This document shows positions 42,489-49,700 of a stretch of 64,000 nucleotides of DNA, one piece after another. Origin of the DNA: Corynebacterium sp. Lineage in GTDB: Bacteria > Actinomycetota > Actinomycetes > Mycobacteriales > Mycobacteriaceae. How positions within the stretch are numbered: position 1 is the stretch's first letter; every line of letters starts with the position of its first letter. The notes under the pieces are model-generated. The model worked only from the letters and a program-made list of their open reading frames with translations, did not search any database and was not told the origin of the DNA. The stretch spans positions 268,372 to 332,371 of the forward strand of contig NZ_JAUNKO010000004.1 in assembly GCF_030532715.1 (NCBI RefSeq). The letters are read 5' to 3'. A program made the position numbers and the translations under genes.

Positions 42489-42500
42489 CGTTTGACGTAG

Positions 42501-42528
42501 CCCCCCTGAACTTCGGTTCGGGGGGTTT
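42501..42528 (+). terminator. intrinsic terminator after the tRNA
   Basis: CCCCCCTGAAC-TTCG-GTTCGGGGGG is a perfect 11-bp stem followed by TTT. Confidence 0.8.
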
Positions 42529-42861
42529 CGTCGCGTCTAAGGGAGGAAGCGTGGCGGGGGAGCAGTTCGGTGATGTCGACACCGAAGAAGTCGGCGACAA
42601 ATCAAAGTTCTTCAAGCGTCCAACTGTTTTGGCCATAGATTTTCCGGCTAGCAGTTGCTCCGGTGATTCCGAAAATTTCTGCGAGCTGTTTTCGAGTTGC
42701 TTTTCTCGAACCATACGTTGCTTTACTTAGCTCTCAAGGCCCCATTCGCCGTCATCGGGGATTGCGTAACTGTCATGTCGCACGTGCAACGAACGTTCCG
42801 AAACGTCCCAAGTGAGCGCTGGCGAAGCGAATCGTGTTCCTGTGTTACAGTCTTTGCCTTG

Positions 42862-43725
42862 ATGACAAATTACGAGCAGTTTTTCGTCGATAACGAGGCG
42901 AATTGGGATGATCGTGCGAAGGTGCATGTTCTCTCAGAGTTGTACGACGTTGAAACCCTAATTTCAGATCGCACACACATAGAGGCCTGCGTTGCGATTG
43001 ATCGGGAACGTTTAGGCGATTTGGCAGGGAAAGATATCGTTCACCTACAGTGCCACCTCGGGACGGATACTCTCTGTTTCGATCGCTTAGGCGCTCGGCG
43101 CGTGGTCGGCCTTGACCTCTCAGGCGAATCGTTGCGTCTAGGAGCAGACATAGCGCGCCGCGCCGAGGCACAGGTGGAGTTCGTGAAGGCAAACGTCTAC
43201 GACGCTGTCGACGTTCTCGGGGCCCATAGCGACGAGGCGCGTTTTGACCTGGTGTACACCGGCATTGGCGCACTCGGTTGGCTCCCAGACCTTGCGCAAT
43301 GGGGCAAGGTCGTCGCTGGCCTCATGCGCCCTGGGGCGCGTTTCTTTATCCGCGAGGATCATCCCGCCTCGCTCATGCTGGCTGATGACCCCTCGGACGG
43401 CTTACGCGTCGGATACGACTACTTCAACACAGGCGTGTTTTCCGAGGACGAGGCGGCCACGTATACGGATATGCCCGATGCGGCACCGGGCATTGTCAAT
43501 CAACGTAGCCATTGGTGGAATCATCCGTTGCAGGACATCATGATGGCCCTTATCAATGCTGGTCTGATCATCGACTCATTTGAGGAACACGAATACGCGA
43601 TGTGGCCACGCTTTGGTGAGGCCAGCGTAAAAATCAGCGACGCACAATATGCCCCGCCTAACGGCTCACACAAGATCCCACTCACCTTCACCCTGGGCGC
43701 GCACAAGCACTTGACACGCATATGA
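42862..43725 (+). CDS. class I SAM-dependent methyltransferase
   Basis: It has a Rossmann SAM motif (VVGLDLSGESL) and an acidic loop (YDAVDV). The start is assigned to M56 (MTNYEQFF) of the track ORF. Confidence 0.6.
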   Translation: MTNYEQFFVDNEANWDDRAKVHVLSELYDVETLISDRTHIEACVAIDRERLGDLAGKDIVHLQCHLGTDTLCFDRLGARRVVGLDLSGESLRLGADIARRAEAQVEFVKANVYDAVDVLGAHSDEARFDLVYTGIGALGWLPDLAQWGKVVAGLMRPGARFFIREDHPASLMLADDPSDGLRVGYDYFNTGVFSEDEAATYTDMPDAAPGIVNQRSHWWNHPLQDIMMALINAGLIIDSFEEHEYAMWPRFGEASVKISDAQYAPPNGSHKIPLTFTLGAHKHLTRI

Positions 43726-43929
43726 AAGTCCTCTGCCGAAGCAGAGGAAACCGATCGACCGTAACAATGGCCAGCAAGCAATCTGGCTGCCCAAATAAAA
43801 GTTCTTTCTGGTCGAAGGGAAACAAGGGGAAAGGGAGAAGGGTTGGCACTGCTATCGTGGCGCACCATGAGGTAGATCACCAAAATCGGAACATCCCTCA
43901 AGGTTTGCGTAGCCTGGTAGGCTGTGACC

Positions 43930-47286: not shown

Positions 47287-47892
47287 TTATAGGTTACCAC
47301 ATCCGTGATAGAGAGGAACTCCGATTATTGCGGCCTCAAGGTATCCCCGCGCATGATCTCCTTCGAAGCTGACTCCCCAAGGGTACTCCCCGCGAAGGTA
47401 ACGTAAATTATTCACAAATTCTTGATCACAAGTGCATGTATCACGATTGACATTTAAGCAATGATCATGCCCCATGCAGGCTCGATCGAGTGAATTAATA
47501 GGATCTCCCGGACCGGAATTAGTTGGGCCGCACCAATTCCCGTAGTTTTCAAAGGGAACAACTTCTTCCACCAGGCCTGGATCTGTGAGGGCTTTCTCCT
47601 CGAGGATTATGTTGTTGTAGATCTTCCCCACCTCAACAATTCGTGGGTCAACATTGTCTCGCTCTGCAGATTCGGCATCAAATAACTCGATCCCGCCATC
47701 TCGTTTGATTTGGTGAGAGAAGATGACTTCTTTGATTTCTTCCTCCGTCGGGCCATTATCGGAATGGAGGCTAGGGGTTGTGCTCGTTGTTGATGCCGAT
47801 GGCAAGCTTTCCGCGGGCATTGCGGTGATTGCTGGGAAAGCGGTTAATGATATTCCCACCATGCTCGCAGTAAGCAGCTTTTTGATTTTCAT
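47287..47892 (-). CDS. secreted phospholipase A2, group III-like (PF05826-type)
   Basis: The signal peptide is MKIKKLLTASMVGISLTAFPAITAMPA. The Ca-loop and catalytic block YGNWCGPTNSGPGDPINSLDRACMGHDHC and the downstream TCTCDQEFVNNL align to the bee-venom PLA2 pattern (WCGxGN…GP…D.CC.THD.C…SCDCD.KF). AGGA lies 9 nt before the ATG at 47892. Confidence 0.7.
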   Translation of the reverse strand: MKIKKLLTASMVGISLTAFPAITAMPAESLPSASTTSTTPSLHSDNGPTEEEIKEVIFSHQIKRDGGIELFDAESAERDNVDPRIVEVGKIYNNIILEEKALTDPGLVEEVVPFENYGNWCGPTNSGPGDPINSLDRACMGHDHCLNVNRDTCTCDQEFVNNLRYLRGEYPWGVSFEGDHARGYLEAAIIGVPLYHGCGNL

Positions 47893-48569
47893 GAATTCCA
47901 TTCCTAGTGGTGATGTTGTTTGAGAGCTTGTGGACTCCATAGTTTGTGAGACATGGAGCTTAGTTATCTAACTAAGCAGAAACTTTCCTAGAGGTCTAAT
48001 TTTCTTATGCAAAACCCAAGTTTGCGGGGGTGCTTTATCTCTTCATTATTATTGTGTGCTGCAAATACTGGTAGATCGTTAGGGTGGAACGATAACATGT
48101 GCATGGAAGTATCGAAACAATATTCGAACTAATCACTATGTTCGAAGGATGTTTTCAGTAAAATGTTTCATTAAGGTTGATTGGGTTTTAGTGAATTGTC
48201 GGGGATCGCTGAGCGGTTCAAGTATCTTGTTTCCGATTTGAGTTTCTGCACACTCCTAACGTTTTTCCTTGTCTAACTTTGTAATGGGGGTAGTTGTAAA
48301 ATTGCTATTCGTTTTGTGCGCTCAACCATAGGGGCTGAGCTATTTGGTTGTGTGGTTTGGAGTTATTTCGTCACTGAGTAGAAACAGTGTTCGCACGAAG
48401 GCTTAAGTATTGGTCTCCGCGACACTTTAGGGCGAGCAAAATCTAGAAATTGGTAATCACACCCATTAACGTTTTGCTTACTTGTGTCCCAGTATTTGGT
48501 GCATCTAACGTTGAATTATCAGCGCACAACCACTTAGTGGATACAGTTTGGATGTAGGCAGGAGGTCAG

Positions 48570-48743
48570 ATGACGAACCATATCTCGATGTCAGGTATTG
48601 CTCGCTTGGCTGGCGTTGCGAGAACGACGGTGAGTATGTGGCGGAAACGTTTTGGCGTTGATTCGGATTCACCTTTTCCGACACCGTTGAGTCGCGCTGA
48701 TTTTGATGCCTCTTTGATTTTTGACGCAGCTGCGGTCGCTTAA
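48570..48743 (+). CDS. 57-aa helix-turn-helix DNA-binding protein (AlpA/excisionase-like)
   Basis: AGGAGG lies 5 nt before the ATG. The product MTNHISMSGIARLAGVARTTVSMWRKRFG… fits an HTH pattern. It is absent from the track because it is under 60 aa. Confidence 0.5.
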   Translation: MTNHISMSGIARLAGVARTTVSMWRKRFGVDSDSPFPTPLSRADFDASLIFDAAAVA

Positions 48744-48995
48744 TGGCTTGTTGCTACGAATCGTAGTAAGGGCAGGGACGTTGTTGGGGATGCCCCGTTC
48801 CACTCCTCACTGTTTGATGTTAGGTAATCGGGCACAAAAGAATGTTTCTGGGGATCTTCTTGTATTGGCAGTTCACGCAGGTTTGATGGTTCCGGAAGGG
48901 CTTCTGTTTGAAGATAGCAATGTCGACTCACCGAGGTGTTAGCAAATTACTTGGCGGAGTGCATCAACTGGAAAACCGCGCGTTATTGAAGTGCT

Positions 48996-49700
48996 TTATG
49001 GTACGAAAATCCAAGATGAAAAGCTTTTTGCTCGAGGTCTAGGAACGGTGCCGGTGATTGGCAAAGAGGAATTGAATGATGTGAGCATGATCGGTAAACG
49101 CAGAATTGATCGTCTTCGGCTTGAAGAAATCGTTGCAAATGCGAGGAGTGCGGCGTCGCCGGTGATGCGTGGGTTGAGCCAGTCGTCGTGCATTTCGGCT
49201 GGCAAAATTAGTGGCATCCGGGGGTGTACGGTTGCGGCTTGCGCCACGGCGTTGCGCGTGACCAGTGCATACGTGAGCGTATCGACGTCTCCGTGGTAGC
49301 TGTTTGTGGTAATTGCGGCGATTCCGAACGTACTGCGGTCCGGCAGGGCGAAGACGGTGCCTTTTTCGACGTACCAGGTAGCGGGCGCAAGTGCACGGTG
49401 ATTGCGGAATGGGGTTTTCCACGCTGGTGAGCGTAAGAGTTTGTCATCGCGGGCGTTAAATGCGCTGAATTTTGCGGGTTCGTTACGTATGTGGAGCCAC
49501 CACCAGGCGAGCTGGAGCGTTCGGTTGCCGTCTTGGTCAGTGGTGATCAAGGGGTTGAGGTTGCGAGCTTTGTTTCCGGTAATTTTTGCGGTGCCGTTAT
49601 GGTGGGCGATCCACTGTTCTAATACATTGTGGTGTTCCCGTTCGTTGAGTGGTGGGAGGTCGTACACCAAGTTCGGGTCGAGGCCGTATGTTGCACACAT
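48996..49700 (-). CDS. SRAP/YedK-family gene, copy 2 (divergent, likely non-native C-terminus)
   Basis: The first 196 aa are identical to copy 1. The C-terminal 38 aa (…AFATISSSRRRSILRLPIMLTSFNSSLP…) read into non-repeat DNA and look like junk. Confidence 0.5.
   Translation of the reverse strand: MCATYGLDPNLVYDLPPLNEREHHNVLEQWIAHHNGTAKITGNKARNLNPLITTDQDGNRTLQLAWWWLHIRNEPAKFSAFNARDDKLLRSPAWKTPFRNHRALAPATWYVEKGTVFALPDRSTFGIAAITTNSYHGDVDTLTYALVTRNAVAQAATVHPRMPLILPAEMHDDWLNPRITGDAALLAFATISSSRRRSILRLPIMLTSFNSSLPITGTVPRPRAKSFSSWIFVP

What the first reader, a model, noticed from the sequence alone, without database searches (positions are those of the whole stretch)
42489..49140. Lower-GC block immediately 3' of initiator tRNA-Met looks like a degenerate integrated element without an integrase
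Right after the tRNA terminator the composition drops and gene content switches to a SAM methyltransferase, an interrupted clpP, a degenerate non-coding-looking stretch (45849-46560), a PLA2 with membrane proteins, a ~600-bp AT-rich region and a strongly SD-led 57-aa HTH gene. tRNA 3' ends are classic integration sites. I could not find an integrase or a repeat of the tRNA 3' end by eye. The element is therefore probably old and decayed, or mobilised by another mechanism such as homologous recombination via the 781-bp repeat.
Basis: partly seen in the sequence, partly recalled or inferred. Interest (0 to 1): 0.6.

Follow-up and report, generated by a model that had tools for sequence, protein, structure and literature searches.

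The report
Patchwork accessory region beside initiator tRNA
The low-GC block after the initiator tRNA is not one decayed integrated element. It is a patchwork in which two recent strain-specific insertions sit among genes shared with a close relative, which is ordinary bacterial genome turnover with one neat structural signature.

Summary
GC falls after tRNA-fMet (42412-42488), the listed genes are present, and there is no integrase and no repeat of the tRNA 3' end.

The single-element reading does not hold. Metagenome contigs from a relative about 98.7% identical carry the methyltransferase, an intact SRAP gene and the Asp23 operon contiguously. That relative lacks only two segments, and these are the only strongly deviant ones (GC 0.47-0.48; GC3 about 0.46 against a background of 0.71 ± 0.06).

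- **Segment 1 (43709-44964).** A 1,256-bp cassette with a frameshifted clpP-like gene. It replaces 198 unrelated bp in the relative.
- **Segment 2 (X, 45849-49140).** A 3,292-bp segment flanked by a perfect 781-bp duplication (45068-45848 = 49141-49921) of the SRAP 5' part and its upstream region.

X begins exactly at the terminal inverted repeat of a decayed IS256-family element. It ends inside a broken HTH-family gene, probably at a 6-nt microhomology. It carries a secreted sPLA2-like gene and two small membrane-protein genes. In two other Corynebacterium lineages this module also lies beside the Asp23 operon.

At genus level the whole stretch 42489 to about 55400 is a variable spot with no integrase. 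I think X plus one repeat is a recently inserted 4,073-bp unit that can loop out by homologous recombination. A 160-bp phage-repressor relic next to the tRNA is the only trace of an older element. Interest is low.

The parts
42412..42488 (+). Initiator-type tRNA-Met(CAT). This is the conserved left border of the variable region. UPF0182 followed by tRNA-Met is syntenic across Corynebacterium, Rhodococcus and Nocardia.
   Evidence: ARAGORN and Rfam RF00005 at 60.9 bits. Initiator features were read from the sequence.
42554..42733 (-). Relic of a Cro/C1-type (XRE) HTH repressor gene. It has no start codon and one internal stop. It is the only phage-like trace next to the tRNA.
   Evidence: Six-frame translation. 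Pfam HTH_26 27.9 bits (cut-off 22) and BetR 29.7 bits. PHROG 4583 'transcriptional repressor' at 5.4e-10.
42862..43725 (+). Class I SAM-dependent methyltransferase gene (GC3 0.64). It is shared with the ~98.7% relative. Its last 17 nt belong to the clpP cassette.
   Evidence: Pfam Methyltransf_12/25 hits are below the gathering cut-offs; homologues are named class I SAM methyltransferases. L033 matches 43179-43708 at 97.2%. The homology of all relatives stops at 43708.
43709..44964 (+). Strain-specific 1,256-bp low-GC cassette (GC 0.481). It replaces an unrelated 198 bp found in L033 and L034. It holds a divergent clpP-like pseudogene (43930-44576) with a -1 frameshift in the C9 run at 43988-43996.
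   Evidence: replacement; ClpP family, 191.7 bits, below the NCBIfam cut-off; frameshift; at most 53% identical to actinobacterial ClpP1.
45010..45627 (-). Intact SRAP (YedK-like) gene, copy A, 205 aa, with the C-terminus typical of the family.
   Evidence: Pfam SRAP at 1.9e-19. 98% identical to P0001 of L033. Alignment.
45068..45848 (.). Left copy (S) of the perfect 781-bp direct repeat. It comprises SRAP codons 1-186 and part of codon 187 (560 nt of the ORF) plus 221 bp upstream.
   Evidence: Exact identity with 49141-49921. Present as a single copy in L033 and L034.
45849..49140 (.). Strain-specific insert X, 3,292 bp, GC 0.469.
   Evidence: Absent from L033 and L034, where S joins the Asp23 operon directly. 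Same-strain unitig L036 covers 46179-49170 at 100%.
45849..46540 (-). 3' half of a decayed IS256-family element. Its terminal inverted repeat is 45849-45875, so X starts exactly at the IS terminus. The transposase remnant (aa 230-447) carries stops and frameshifts. There is no partner inverted repeat in the window.
   Evidence: blastn to the C. diphtheriae plasmid transposase gene and tblastn at 2e-15. The IR is 25/27 identical to that element's IR and in register from base 1. The IR consensus occurs once in the window and at both ends of the reference IS.
46665..47251 (-). Two overlapping small multi-pass membrane ORFs, mem129 (46665-47054) and mem95 (46964-47251). Paralogues occur in tandem arrays after the PLA2 gene in L037.
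   Evidence: 65% aa to L037, at least 5 paralogue pairs there. No Pfam, NCBIfam or PADLOC hit.
47287..47940 (-). Secreted sPLA2-like protein. It has a signal-peptide-like N-terminus, the Ca-loop YGNWCG..G and the catalytic HD.
   Evidence: Pfam PF00068 31.1 bits, just below the 32.1 cut-off. PDB sPLA2 hits at 1e-6 with the motif aligned. Homologues P0121-P0139.
47941..48569 (.). AT-rich intergenic region (GC 0.409) upstream of the PLA2 gene. A 52-bp stretch (48082-48133) is conserved with the PLA2-Asp23 intergenic region of L037. It has no iterons or tandem repeats.
48570..49146 (+). Pseudogene of an unannotated family of about 600-720 aa with an N-terminal HTH. Family aa 1-81 are followed by aa ~405-503, so there is an internal deletion, plus a stop, plus a 3' truncation at the junction with S'. 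The alignment runs 2 aa (AR, GCGAGG) into S', which suggests a 6-nt microhomology joint.
   Evidence: PADLOC Type I MTase model matches the N-terminus only, at 1.2e-5. Full-length relatives have no family hit.
49141..49921 (.). Right copy (S') of the 781-bp repeat. It holds a 3'-truncated SRAP' (ORF 48996-49700) that reads into antisense X. It keeps the native region upstream of the Asp23 operon.
   Evidence: Continuous with the Asp23 operon exactly as in L033.
49922..55400 (+). The rest of the genus-level variable region: the Asp23/DUF6286/ECF-sigma operon, SfLAP and DM13 (GC 0.58, GC3 0.60-0.76). It is conserved in L033 at 98.7%. It is absent after the tRNA in the more distant species, and the Asp23/sigma operon is absent from L035.

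Best explanation
The block is the tRNA-proximal part of a roughly 13-kb accessory hotspot with no integrase. The hotspot lies between the conserved UPF0182/tRNA-fMet pair and the conserved carboxylase genes at about 55.4 kb. It was built piecemeal rather than by one integration at the tRNA.

**What is shared and what is new.** In this strain a species-level backbone (methyltransferase, SRAP, Asp23/ECF-sigma operon) has recently gained two low-GC pieces.
1. A 1,256-bp cassette with a frameshifted clpP-like gene. It replaced 198 bp between the methyltransferase and SRAP, as an allelic cassette exchange.
2. A 3,292-bp segment X. It carries an IS256 relic, two membrane-protein genes, a secreted sPLA2-like gene, an AT-rich promoter region and a broken HTH gene. 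It was inserted together with a 781-bp duplication of the SRAP 5' region.

**How X is joined.** The left joint of X is the exact terminus of an IS256-family inverted repeat, that is, an end of the kind a transposase makes. The right joint is an illegitimate joint, probably at a 6-nt microhomology, that truncates two genes.

**Proposed mechanism (inferred).** X plus one repeat form a 4,073-bp unit that entered an 'SRAP-Asp23' chromosome by a single homologous crossover of a circle. The same structure could instead arise by copying during repair. The perfect repeats mean the unit can loop out again through host recombination.

**Consequence.** Both SRAP and the Asp23 operon keep intact coding and upstream sequence, so the insertion is silent for its neighbours. 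Its cargo is most likely a secreted phospholipase with membrane-protein partners, possibly a toxin and its immunity proteins.

**Shown:** the anatomy, the empty sites and the recency. **Inferred:** the circle/crossover route and the cargo function.
For: **Empty sites.** L033 and L034 come from two SRA runs. They align to window 55683-49141 at 98.7%, to 45848-44965 at 98.0%, and to 43708-43179 at 97.2%. They have one copy of S and 198 unrelated bp in place of 43709-44964.

**Composition.** Only the two strain-specific pieces are deviant, with GC 0.481 and 0.469 and GC3 0.456-0.469 against 0.714 +/- 0.057.

**Recency.** S and S' differ at 0 of 781 positions, while S differs from L033 at 15 positions.

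**Junction anatomy.**
- The IR consensus sits at 45849-45875, 25/27 identical to the terminal IR of the C. diphtheriae IS256-family element. It is unique in the window.
- The transposase remnant reads towards that end.
- The HTH-family alignment stops at the joint after running 2 aa into S'.
- SRAP copy A has the family C-terminus, and copy B diverges after residue 187.

**Raw-read support.** Same-strain unitigs L043 (42432-45097), L036 (46179-49170) and L049 (49892-56620) are 100% identical to the window. Each ends exactly 30 nt inside S, as expected for a two-copy repeat in a k=31 graph.

**Hotspot.**
- Synteny with eight Corynebacterium relatives, and with Rhodococcus and Nocardia, breaks at the tRNA. 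In three of them (L001-L003) it resumes at window ~55470, only 2-4.6 kb after their tRNA, with unrelated content in between; a fourth resumes further downstream.
- In C. kozikiae that content is a restriction-modification system, a SocA antitoxin and IS3 fragments.
- No integrase or att repeat was found.
- The PLA2 and membrane-gene module lies directly beside the Asp23 operon in L037 and L044, is also low-GC in L037, and has a divergence similar to that of its neighbours.

Against: - No circular form, read depth or long read is available. The k-mer graph fits equally well a chromosome with one S plus a free 4,073-bp circle.
- A Campbell route needs a circle whose S is identical to the recipient's. 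This in turn needs an earlier arrangement with X next to S in the same clone, and no such genome was found.
- The IS relic is heavily decayed, which sits awkwardly with a recent transposase-made joint unless a transposase acted in trans.
- The closest relatives are short metagenome contigs. L033 stops inside the methyltransferase, so the tRNA-methyltransferase junction in that lineage was not seen.
- PLA2-Asp23 adjacency in other species could mean X is ancestral here and was lost in L033.
- The cargo function is untested.
Confidence: 0.7

Rival explanations
1. The whole of 42489-49140 is one old integrative element that entered at the tRNA-fMet 3' end. It has since lost its integrase and att repeats.
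For: - Synteny with other species breaks exactly at the tRNA.
- A phage-type Cro/C1 repressor relic abuts the tRNA.
- GC is below the window mean throughout the block.
- The methyltransferase has a patchy distribution and sits elsewhere in related species.
Against: - The ~98.7% relative keeps the methyltransferase and SRAP but lacks only two internal pieces. Those pieces have their own junctions, 1.2 and 3.4 kb from the tRNA.
- The methyltransferase and SRAP have near-normal GC3.
- The variable region continues to about 55.4 kb.
- The duplication is recent.
- There is no att repeat and no recombinase remnant.
Confidence: 0.07
2. X was inserted in one step, by transposase-initiated or break-induced copying, and no circle was involved. 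The IS end, or a broken end, joined the chromosome at 45848|49922. Synthesis then ran through X and switched back to the chromosome at the GCGAGG microhomology 781 bp upstream. This re-copied S.
For: - It explains in one cell why S and S' are identical.
- It explains why one joint is IR-precise.
- It explains why the other joint shows microhomology and truncates two genes.
- X's right end has only one continuation in the strain's reads, so no donor copy is retained.
Against: - To my knowledge, one-ended events with a duplication of hundreds of bp are not documented for IS256-family elements.
- The relic encodes no working transposase.
- The microhomology is inferred from 2 conserved residues only.
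- The mechanism cannot be told apart from Campbell integration by sequence alone.
Confidence: 0.25
3. The S-X-S order comes from resolving an ambiguous assembly graph. In this model the chromosome is SRAP-Asp23 with a single S, and X plus S exists as a separate 4,073-bp circular molecule.
For: Short-read unitigs break exactly at the borders of S. They support only the four edges a->S, X->S, S->X and S->b. Those edges fit both configurations.
Against: - X has no replication gene, no iterons and no origin-like repeats.
- X has no plasmid or phage relatives apart from the IS relic.
- Its cargo is chromosomal and sits in the same locus in other species.
- A circle without a replicon would not be maintained.
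Confidence: 0.1
4. X is ancestral at this locus. The S-X-S arrangement is old and its repeats are kept identical by gene conversion. L033 and L034 are derivatives that lost X by recombination between the repeats.
For: - The PLA2 and membrane-gene module lies beside the Asp23 operon in L037 and L044. Its divergence (68-72% nt) is similar to that of the neighbouring operon (66-69%).
- The IS relic and the HTH pseudogene are old.
- Loop-out between 781-bp repeats would leave exactly the L033 sequence.
Against: - Zero differences in 781 bp, against 15 differences to L033, would need complete and recent homogenisation.
- A 781-bp perfect direct repeat 3.3 kb apart is expected to be unstable over the time needed for about 2% divergence. 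This rests on established knowledge of RecA-mediated deletion.
- X has not drifted towards the host composition.
Confidence: 0.12

Closest known systems
tRNA-linked genomic islands and integrative elements (tyrosine-recombinase mediated)
   Same: It lies directly 3' of a tRNA gene, has lower GC and accessory cargo, and synteny with other species breaks at the tRNA. A phage-repressor relic is adjacent to the tRNA.
   Different: There is no integrase and no duplicated tRNA 3' end. The block is not gained or lost as a unit. The junctions of the recent insertions lie inside or beside protein-coding genes, 1.2 and 3.4 kb away from the tRNA.
Horizontal-transfer hotspots without recognisable mobile elements (Oliveira et al. 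2017, PMC5635113), and the 'minimal mobile elements' of Neisseria (PMC3787668, seen only as a search-result title and abstract)
   Same: Conserved flanking genes bracket content that differs between species and strains. Small cassettes are swapped between fixed breakpoints (43708|43709 and 44964|44965). There are no mobility genes. Exchange by flanking homology is the implied mechanism.
   Different: Natural transformation is not established for this organism. One insertion carries an IS terminus and a long duplication, which simple double-crossover cassette exchange does not produce.
Campbell-type cointegrates made by a single homologous crossover. Examples are integrated suicide plasmids, Hfr/F' formation and loop-in/loop-out. 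This comparison rests on my own knowledge.
   Same: The insert is flanked by two identical direct copies of a chromosomal segment. The relative has one copy at the empty site. One gene copy is intact and the other is truncated. The structure is predicted to revert by recombination between the repeats.
   Different: The inserted DNA is not a replicon or a vector. It is natural chromosomal-type cargo. The circle was not observed, and how it acquired the 781-bp host segment is unknown.
IS256-family elements, which move by copy-out-paste-in through circular intermediates, and one-ended mobilisation of adjacent DNA by IS ends. This comparison rests on my own knowledge.
   Same: X starts at base 1 of a terminal inverted repeat that is 25/27 identical to the IR of an IS256-family element of about 1,435 bp from a C. 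diphtheriae plasmid. The other end of X is arbitrary.
   Different: Only the 3' half of the IS survives. Its transposase is destroyed, there is no second IR, and there is no 8-bp target duplication around X. The duplication is 781 bp.

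Membership tests
tRNA-integrated genomic island / integrative element | An integrase (tyrosine or serine recombinase) gene at the tRNA-proximal or distal end | tested here: not met
   No recombinase domain was found in any ORF from 42.4 to 55.4 kb, nor in the ten longest intergenic six-frame segments of 45 aa or more.
tRNA-integrated genomic island / integrative element | A direct repeat of the tRNA 3' end (attL/attR) bounding the element | tested here: not met
   19-25-mers of the tRNA 3' half, searched at up to 3 mismatches, match only the tRNA itself in the 64 kb.
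tRNA-integrated genomic island / integrative element | Present or absent as one unit, with an empty site at the tRNA in close relatives | tested here: not met
   The ~98.7% relative keeps the methyltransferase and SRAP and lacks only 43709-44964 and the 4,073-bp insertion. The tRNA junction itself was not covered by those contigs.
Campbell-type (single-crossover) homologous integration | The insert is flanked by two direct copies of one chromosomal segment, and the empty site has a single copy with identical outer flanks | tested here: met
   S and S' are 781/781 identical. L033 and L034 have one copy continuous with both outer flanks.
Campbell-type (single-crossover) homologous integration | A circular form consisting of the insert plus one repeat, with recombination-dependent loop-in and loop-out | not testable with these tools
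   This needs read depth, outward PCR or long reads. The k-mer unitigs are compatible with it but not diagnostic.
IS256-family insertion or composite transposon | A terminal inverted repeat at the junction | tested here: met
   45849-45875 matches the IR consensus, which is found at both ends of the reference IS (L042 1450-1476 and 2858-2884) and nowhere else in the window.
IS256-family insertion or composite transposon | A second IR or IS copy at the other end, an intact transposase, and a short target-site duplication | tested here: not met
   There is a single IR in the 64 kb. The transposase remnant covers aa 230-447 and carries stops and frameshifts. The bases flanking X are CGCTACAG on the left and GCGAGGAG on the right, so there is no short duplication.
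HGT hotspot / minimal-mobile-element-type variable locus | Conserved flanking core genes with unrelated content between them in different genomes, and no mobility genes needed | tested here: met
   UPF0182 plus tRNA-fMet is conserved on the left in all relatives. In L001-L003 the two carboxylase genes (window 55.47-58.56 kb, 84-90% aa) follow 2-4.6 kb after the tRNA; L008 resumes further downstream. The window has 13 kb between them, and the intervening content is unrelated.
Prophage remnant | Several phage-family genes (structural, replication or lysis) | tested here: not met
   Only the repressor relic looks phage-like. The clpP-like gene scores better on cellular ClpP models, and its best match in the viral-contig scan is a clpP1 beside tig and clpP2, that is, host flank. 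The 6.6 kb has no DNA match in 50,697 phage records, and the PLA2 gene has no viral-contig relative.
Secreted phospholipase A2 (PF00068-type) | The Ca2+-binding loop Y-G-x-x-C-G-x-G and the catalytic His-Asp in C-x-x-H-D-x-C | tested here: met
   YGNWCGPTNSGPG and ACMGHDHC align to snake, pancreatic and plant sPLA2 structures at 1e-6. The Pfam score of 31.1 bits is just under the 32.1 cut-off. Enzyme activity was not tested.

The most novel reading that the evidence does not exclude
X plus one repeat may be a mobile unit that has no integrase and no replicon. In this reading, a 4,073-bp circle carries a secreted sPLA2-type toxin with small membrane immunity proteins. It uses a captured 781-bp host gene fragment as its 'attachment site'. 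It moves in and out of the chromosome by host RecA alone, and a surviving IS256 end supplies circle formation.
Probability: 0.1. Interest if true: 0.55.

Novelty: new member of a known kind. Interest (0 to 1): 0.25.

Why it matters
The case shows that a low-GC block beside a tRNA need not be a decayed island. A near-identical relative resolves it into a shared backbone plus two small recent indels. This is a useful caution for island callers that rely on tRNA proximity and composition.

The S-X-S structure is a clean natural example of an insertion that preserves both neighbouring genes by duplicating 781 bp. It has one transposase-type joint and one microhomology joint, and it should be reversible.

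The cargo could be of modest interest for interbacterial antagonism or host interaction. It is a eukaryote-type secreted PLA2 whose small membrane-protein partners form tandem arrays in a related Corynebacterium (L037), and it sits beside an Asp23/ECF-sigma envelope-stress operon in several Corynebacterium lineages. None of this is surprising to a specialist.

Tried and rejected
**Searches that found nothing useful**
- Exact-protein look-ups of SRAP, Asp23 and the 217-aa PLA2 ORF found nothing, because the start codons are called differently.
- The window's own species is not among the GTDB representatives: the best UPF0182 match is 66%. Empty-site evidence therefore comes from short metagenome contigs.
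- The 6.6-kb block has no DNA match in phage records. X matches plasmids only through the IS relic.
- PLA2 has no viral-contig relative.
- Rfam finds only the tRNA.
- PADLOC gives only an N-terminal HTH match to a Type I methyltransferase model.
- The AT-rich region has no iterons or tandem repeats.
- The promoter and terminator scans give no more hits than shuffled sequence.
- The ten longest intergenic six-frame segments have no Pfam domain.

**Ideas considered and dropped**
- *Engineered single-crossover integration of a suicide vector.* Rejected. X has no vector, origin or marker features, and its cargo has natural homologues at the same locus in other species.
- *clpP-like gene as a phage head protease.* Rejected. 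It scores higher on cellular ClpP models (191.7 against 123 bits). Its best 'viral contig' match is a host tig-clpP1-clpP2 flank.
- *The repeat ending just before an ATG of the Asp23 ORF.* I judged this not meaningful, because the true start is uncertain: orthologues are called at 166 and 186 aa.
- *The two low-GC pieces as one former contiguous block, split by re-insertion of SRAP.* Considered because their composition is alike. Left open, because it needs more events than the alternatives.

Full report

Yes. ARAGORN and Rfam find one tRNA-Met(CAT) at 42412-42488. Its sequence shows a C1/U72 mismatch and three G-C pairs next to the anticodon loop, so it is an initiator type. A GC-rich hairpin follows at 42501-42525.

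GC is 0.598 for the window. It falls to 0.53-0.57 at 42.0-44.0 kb and to 0.47-0.52 at 44.0-45.5 kb. It recovers to 0.55-0.56 at 45.0-46.5 kb, then drops to 0.435-0.447 at 46.5-49.0 kb.

Third-position GC of 36 ORFs outside 42489-55400 is 0.714 +/- 0.057. The clpP-like gene (0.456), mem129 (0.469) and PLA2 (0.463) lie more than 4 SD below that. The methyltransferase (0.638) and SRAP (0.665) do not. The compositional anomaly is therefore confined to two sub-blocks.

No recombinase domain is present in any ORF or in the ten longest intergenic six-frame segments. The tRNA 3' half has no second copy in 64 kb at up to 3 mismatches. The 781-bp repeat is exact: 45068-45848 = 49141-49921, at a spacing of 4,073 bp.

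**2. What the pieces are**

- **42554-42733 (minus strand).** A Cro/C1-type HTH gene relic with an internal stop and no start. It scores HTH_26 27.9 bits and PHROG 4583 'repressor' 5e-10.
- **42862-43725.** A class I SAM methyltransferase.
- **43930-44576.** A divergent clpP paralogue. It scores 191.7 bits on a cellular ClpP model, below the cut-off, and is at most 53% identical to actinobacterial ClpP1. It is broken by a -1 frameshift in the C9 run at 43988-43996. An independent short-read unitig of the same strain also has C9.
- **45010-45627 (minus strand).** A full-length SRAP/YedK-type gene. A second copy at 48996-49700 shares residues 1-187 and then reads into junk.
- **The repeat S.** It holds SRAP codons 1-186, part of codon 187, and the 221 bp upstream.

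Between the repeats lies X (45849-49140, GC 0.469). Its contents, in order, are:

- **45849-~46540.** The 3' half of an IS256-family element on the minus strand. The transposase remnant covers aa 230-447 and has stops and frameshifts.
- **46665-47251.** Two small membrane ORFs.
- **47287-47940.** A secreted sPLA2-like protein with the Ca loop and the catalytic HD.
- **47941-48569.** A 629-bp AT-rich region without iterons.
- **48570-49146.** The '57-aa HTH gene' and what follows it. This is the stub of a broken gene of about 650 aa. Family residues 1-81 are followed directly by residues ~405-503, there is a stop, and the gene is truncated at the junction. Full-length relatives of this family match no Pfam, NCBIfam or PADLOC model.

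**3. Related genomes**

No same-species genome is in the GTDB representative set. The best UPF0182 match is 66%.

*Genus level.* In eight Corynebacterium relatives, and in Rhodococcus and Nocardia, synteny is conserved up to UPF0182 plus tRNA-Met and breaks there. In three of them (L001-L003) orthologues of window 55.47-58.56 kb (84-90% aa) follow only 2-4.6 kb after the tRNA, and the genes in between are unrelated; a fourth (L008) resumes further downstream. In C. kozikiae they are an Eco47II-type restriction-modification system, a SocA/Panacea antitoxin and IS3 fragments. The genus-level variable spot in the window is therefore 42489 to about 55400. That is twice the proposed size, and it contains no integrase.

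*Close relative.* The SRAP search found P0001 (98%) on two metagenome contigs from different runs, L033 and L034. blastn gives three alignments:
- L033 1-6534 = window 55683-49141 (98.7%).
- L033 5754-6638 = window 45848-44965 (98.0%).
- L033 6837-7366 = window 43708-43179 (97.2%).

This relative therefore has methyltransferase, 198 bp, intact SRAP, then the Asp23 operon. It has a single S and no X. In place of window 43709-44964 it has 198 bp with no similarity. The left breakpoint lies 17 nt before the methyltransferase stop codon. The nucleotide homology of methyltransferase genes at 85% and 73% identity, from other lineages, also ends at 43708. In those lineages the gene lies next to der and a Mur ligase.

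*Another species.* L035 (SRAP 82%) has SRAP directly beside SfLAP, with no Asp23/sigma operon. The locus has therefore been remodelled repeatedly, in single-gene or single-operon steps.

**4. The 4,073-bp insertion**

Seven facts constrain its origin.

- **F1.** S and S' are identical at 781 of 781 positions, yet S differs from L033 at 15 positions. The duplication is younger than the split from that lineage, or it has been fully homogenised.
- **F2.** X begins at base 1 of an IS256-family terminal inverted repeat. GAGTCTGTCAAGTTGTTTGTGTGTGGG is 25/27 identical to the IR of a C. diphtheriae plasmid element. The consensus built from that element's two ends occurs once in the window, at 45849-45875, against 0 expected by chance. 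The transposase remnant reads towards this end.
- **F3.** The right joint truncates both the HTH-family pseudogene and SRAP'. The family alignment continues for two conserved residues (AR, encoded by GCGAGG) into S', which suggests a 6-nt microhomology.
- **F4.** The outer flanks of S and S' are continuous, exactly as in the empty site.
- **F5.** A PLA2 gene (62-65% aa) with homologues of the membrane ORFs lies directly beside the Asp23/sigma operon in L037 and L044. In L037 the module is also low-GC (0.39-0.48). Its nucleotide identity to the window (68-72%) is like that of the adjoining operon (66-69%). 52 bp of the PLA2 upstream region are conserved in L037.
- **F6.** Same-strain unitigs L043, L036 and L049 are 100% identical to the window. 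Each stops 30 nt inside S. The a->S, X->S and S->b edges therefore exist in raw reads, and X's right end has only one continuation.
- **F7.** There is no second IR and no short target duplication around X.

**5. Most likely mechanism**

*Shown.* X plus one S is a recent addition to an 'SRAP-Asp23' chromosome. One joint is IR-precise and one is illegitimate.

*Inferred.* I favour loop-in of a 4,073-bp circle by a single homologous crossover within S. In this model the circle's S|IR joint was made by an IS256-type end-joining reaction, and its X|S joint by a microhomology deletion between the convergent HTH and SRAP genes. This gives exactly the observed S-X-S. It keeps an intact SRAP and the native Asp23 upstream region. 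It also predicts reversible loop-out.

Its weakness is that it needs a donor whose S is identical to the recipient's.

The main rival is a one-step copying event. An IS end or a broken end joins at 45848|49922, synthesis runs through X, and the template then switches back at GCGAGG. This explains F1 without a second genotype, but it is mechanistically unusual. Sequence alone cannot separate the two.

Two further alternatives remain open at low probability:
- The graph-equivalent configuration of a chromosome with one S plus a free circle. It is disfavoured because X has no replicon features.
- An old arrangement homogenised by gene conversion, with L033 as a loop-out derivative. F5 favours it and F1 argues against it.

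The clpP cassette is best read as an allelic cassette swap between the fixed breakpoints 43708|43709 and 44964|44965. Its composition is almost the same as that of X (GC 0.481 against 0.469), which hints at a common source. That link is unproven.

**6. Comparison with what is known**

The region behaves like the HGT hotspots described by Oliveira et al. [quoted passage not shown] It also resembles the cassette-swapping 'minimal mobile elements' of Neisseria (PMC3787668, listed).

It fails all three tested defining features of a tRNA-integrated island: integrase, att repeat, and unit presence or absence. The S-X-S anatomy meets the structural definition of a Campbell-type cointegrate. Its circular form could not be tested. 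It meets one IS256 criterion (the terminal IR) and fails the others.

**7. Verdict**

It is wrong about unity, about anchoring at the tRNA, and about age.

This is ordinary genome plasticity with a tidy structural example. I rate it a new member of a known kind, with interest 0.25.

Noticed in passing
window 48570-49146; proteins P0266, P0290, P0319, P0325, P0335: There is a family of proteins of about 600-720 aa with a conserved N-terminal HTH (motif WRxRF..PFPxP). Five members tested have no Pfam, NCBIfam or PADLOC match. The window holds only a broken copy. Only the 57-aa stub weakly matches the N-terminus of a PADLOC Type I methyltransferase model.
   Followed up: partly
L037 10001-16890 (MAG Corynebacterium sp., JAUMZC010000055.1): The PLA2-like gene is followed by at least five tandem paralogue pairs of the mem95/mem129 small membrane proteins, all low-GC. 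This layout resembles a toxin gene with an array of immunity genes.
   Followed up: partly
L001 (JAUDUO010000003.1): The record is titled Staphylococcus chromogenes M79.2. It is nevertheless syntenic with Corynebacterium across 20 kb (UPF0182 66% aa, several neighbours 74-90% aa to the window). It is probably a contaminant contig or a mislabelled assembly.
   Followed up: no
L003 13176-13903; L012 16221-22822: C. gallinarum has two tRNA-Met(CAT) genes about 650 bp apart, start to start, after UPF0182. A Nocardia genome has two copies 6.5 kb apart, which might bracket an inserted segment.
   Followed up: no
L004 13283-19408 (C. kozikiae): The stretch downstream of tRNA-fMet has lower GC (0.554 against 0.624). 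It holds an Eco47II-type endonuclease, a C5 DNA methylase with a MerR-type HTH, a SocA/Panacea antitoxin and IS3 transposase fragments. No integrase was seen among the ORFs tested.
   Followed up: partly
L035 4354-5718: In a species with 82% SRAP identity, SRAP lies directly beside the SfLAP gene. The whole Asp23/DUF6286/ECF-sigma operon (window 49922-53800) is absent there, so that operon is itself an accessory insertion or deletion.
   Followed up: partly
L038, L039-L041: The methyltransferase gene (90% and 80% aa) sits next to der, a Mur ligase and, in the 80% relatives, TfoX. It is not near tRNA-fMet. Nucleotide homology to the window is limited to the gene itself (42837-43708).
   Followed up: partly
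window 43988-43996: A C9 homopolymer breaks the clpP-like frame, and C10 would restore it. The same length is seen in an independent short-read unitig (L043). The run could be a slippage-prone switch or just a pseudogene lesion.
   Followed up: partly
L036 left end = window 46179: The same-strain unitig covering X breaks at 46179, inside the IS relic and not at a junction. This suggests that related IS256-family sequence occurs elsewhere in that genome, outside the window.
   Followed up: no
window 14000-16500, 18500-20000, 34000-35500: These are other patches of lower GC (0.55-0.58) in the window. They were not examined.
   Followed up: no
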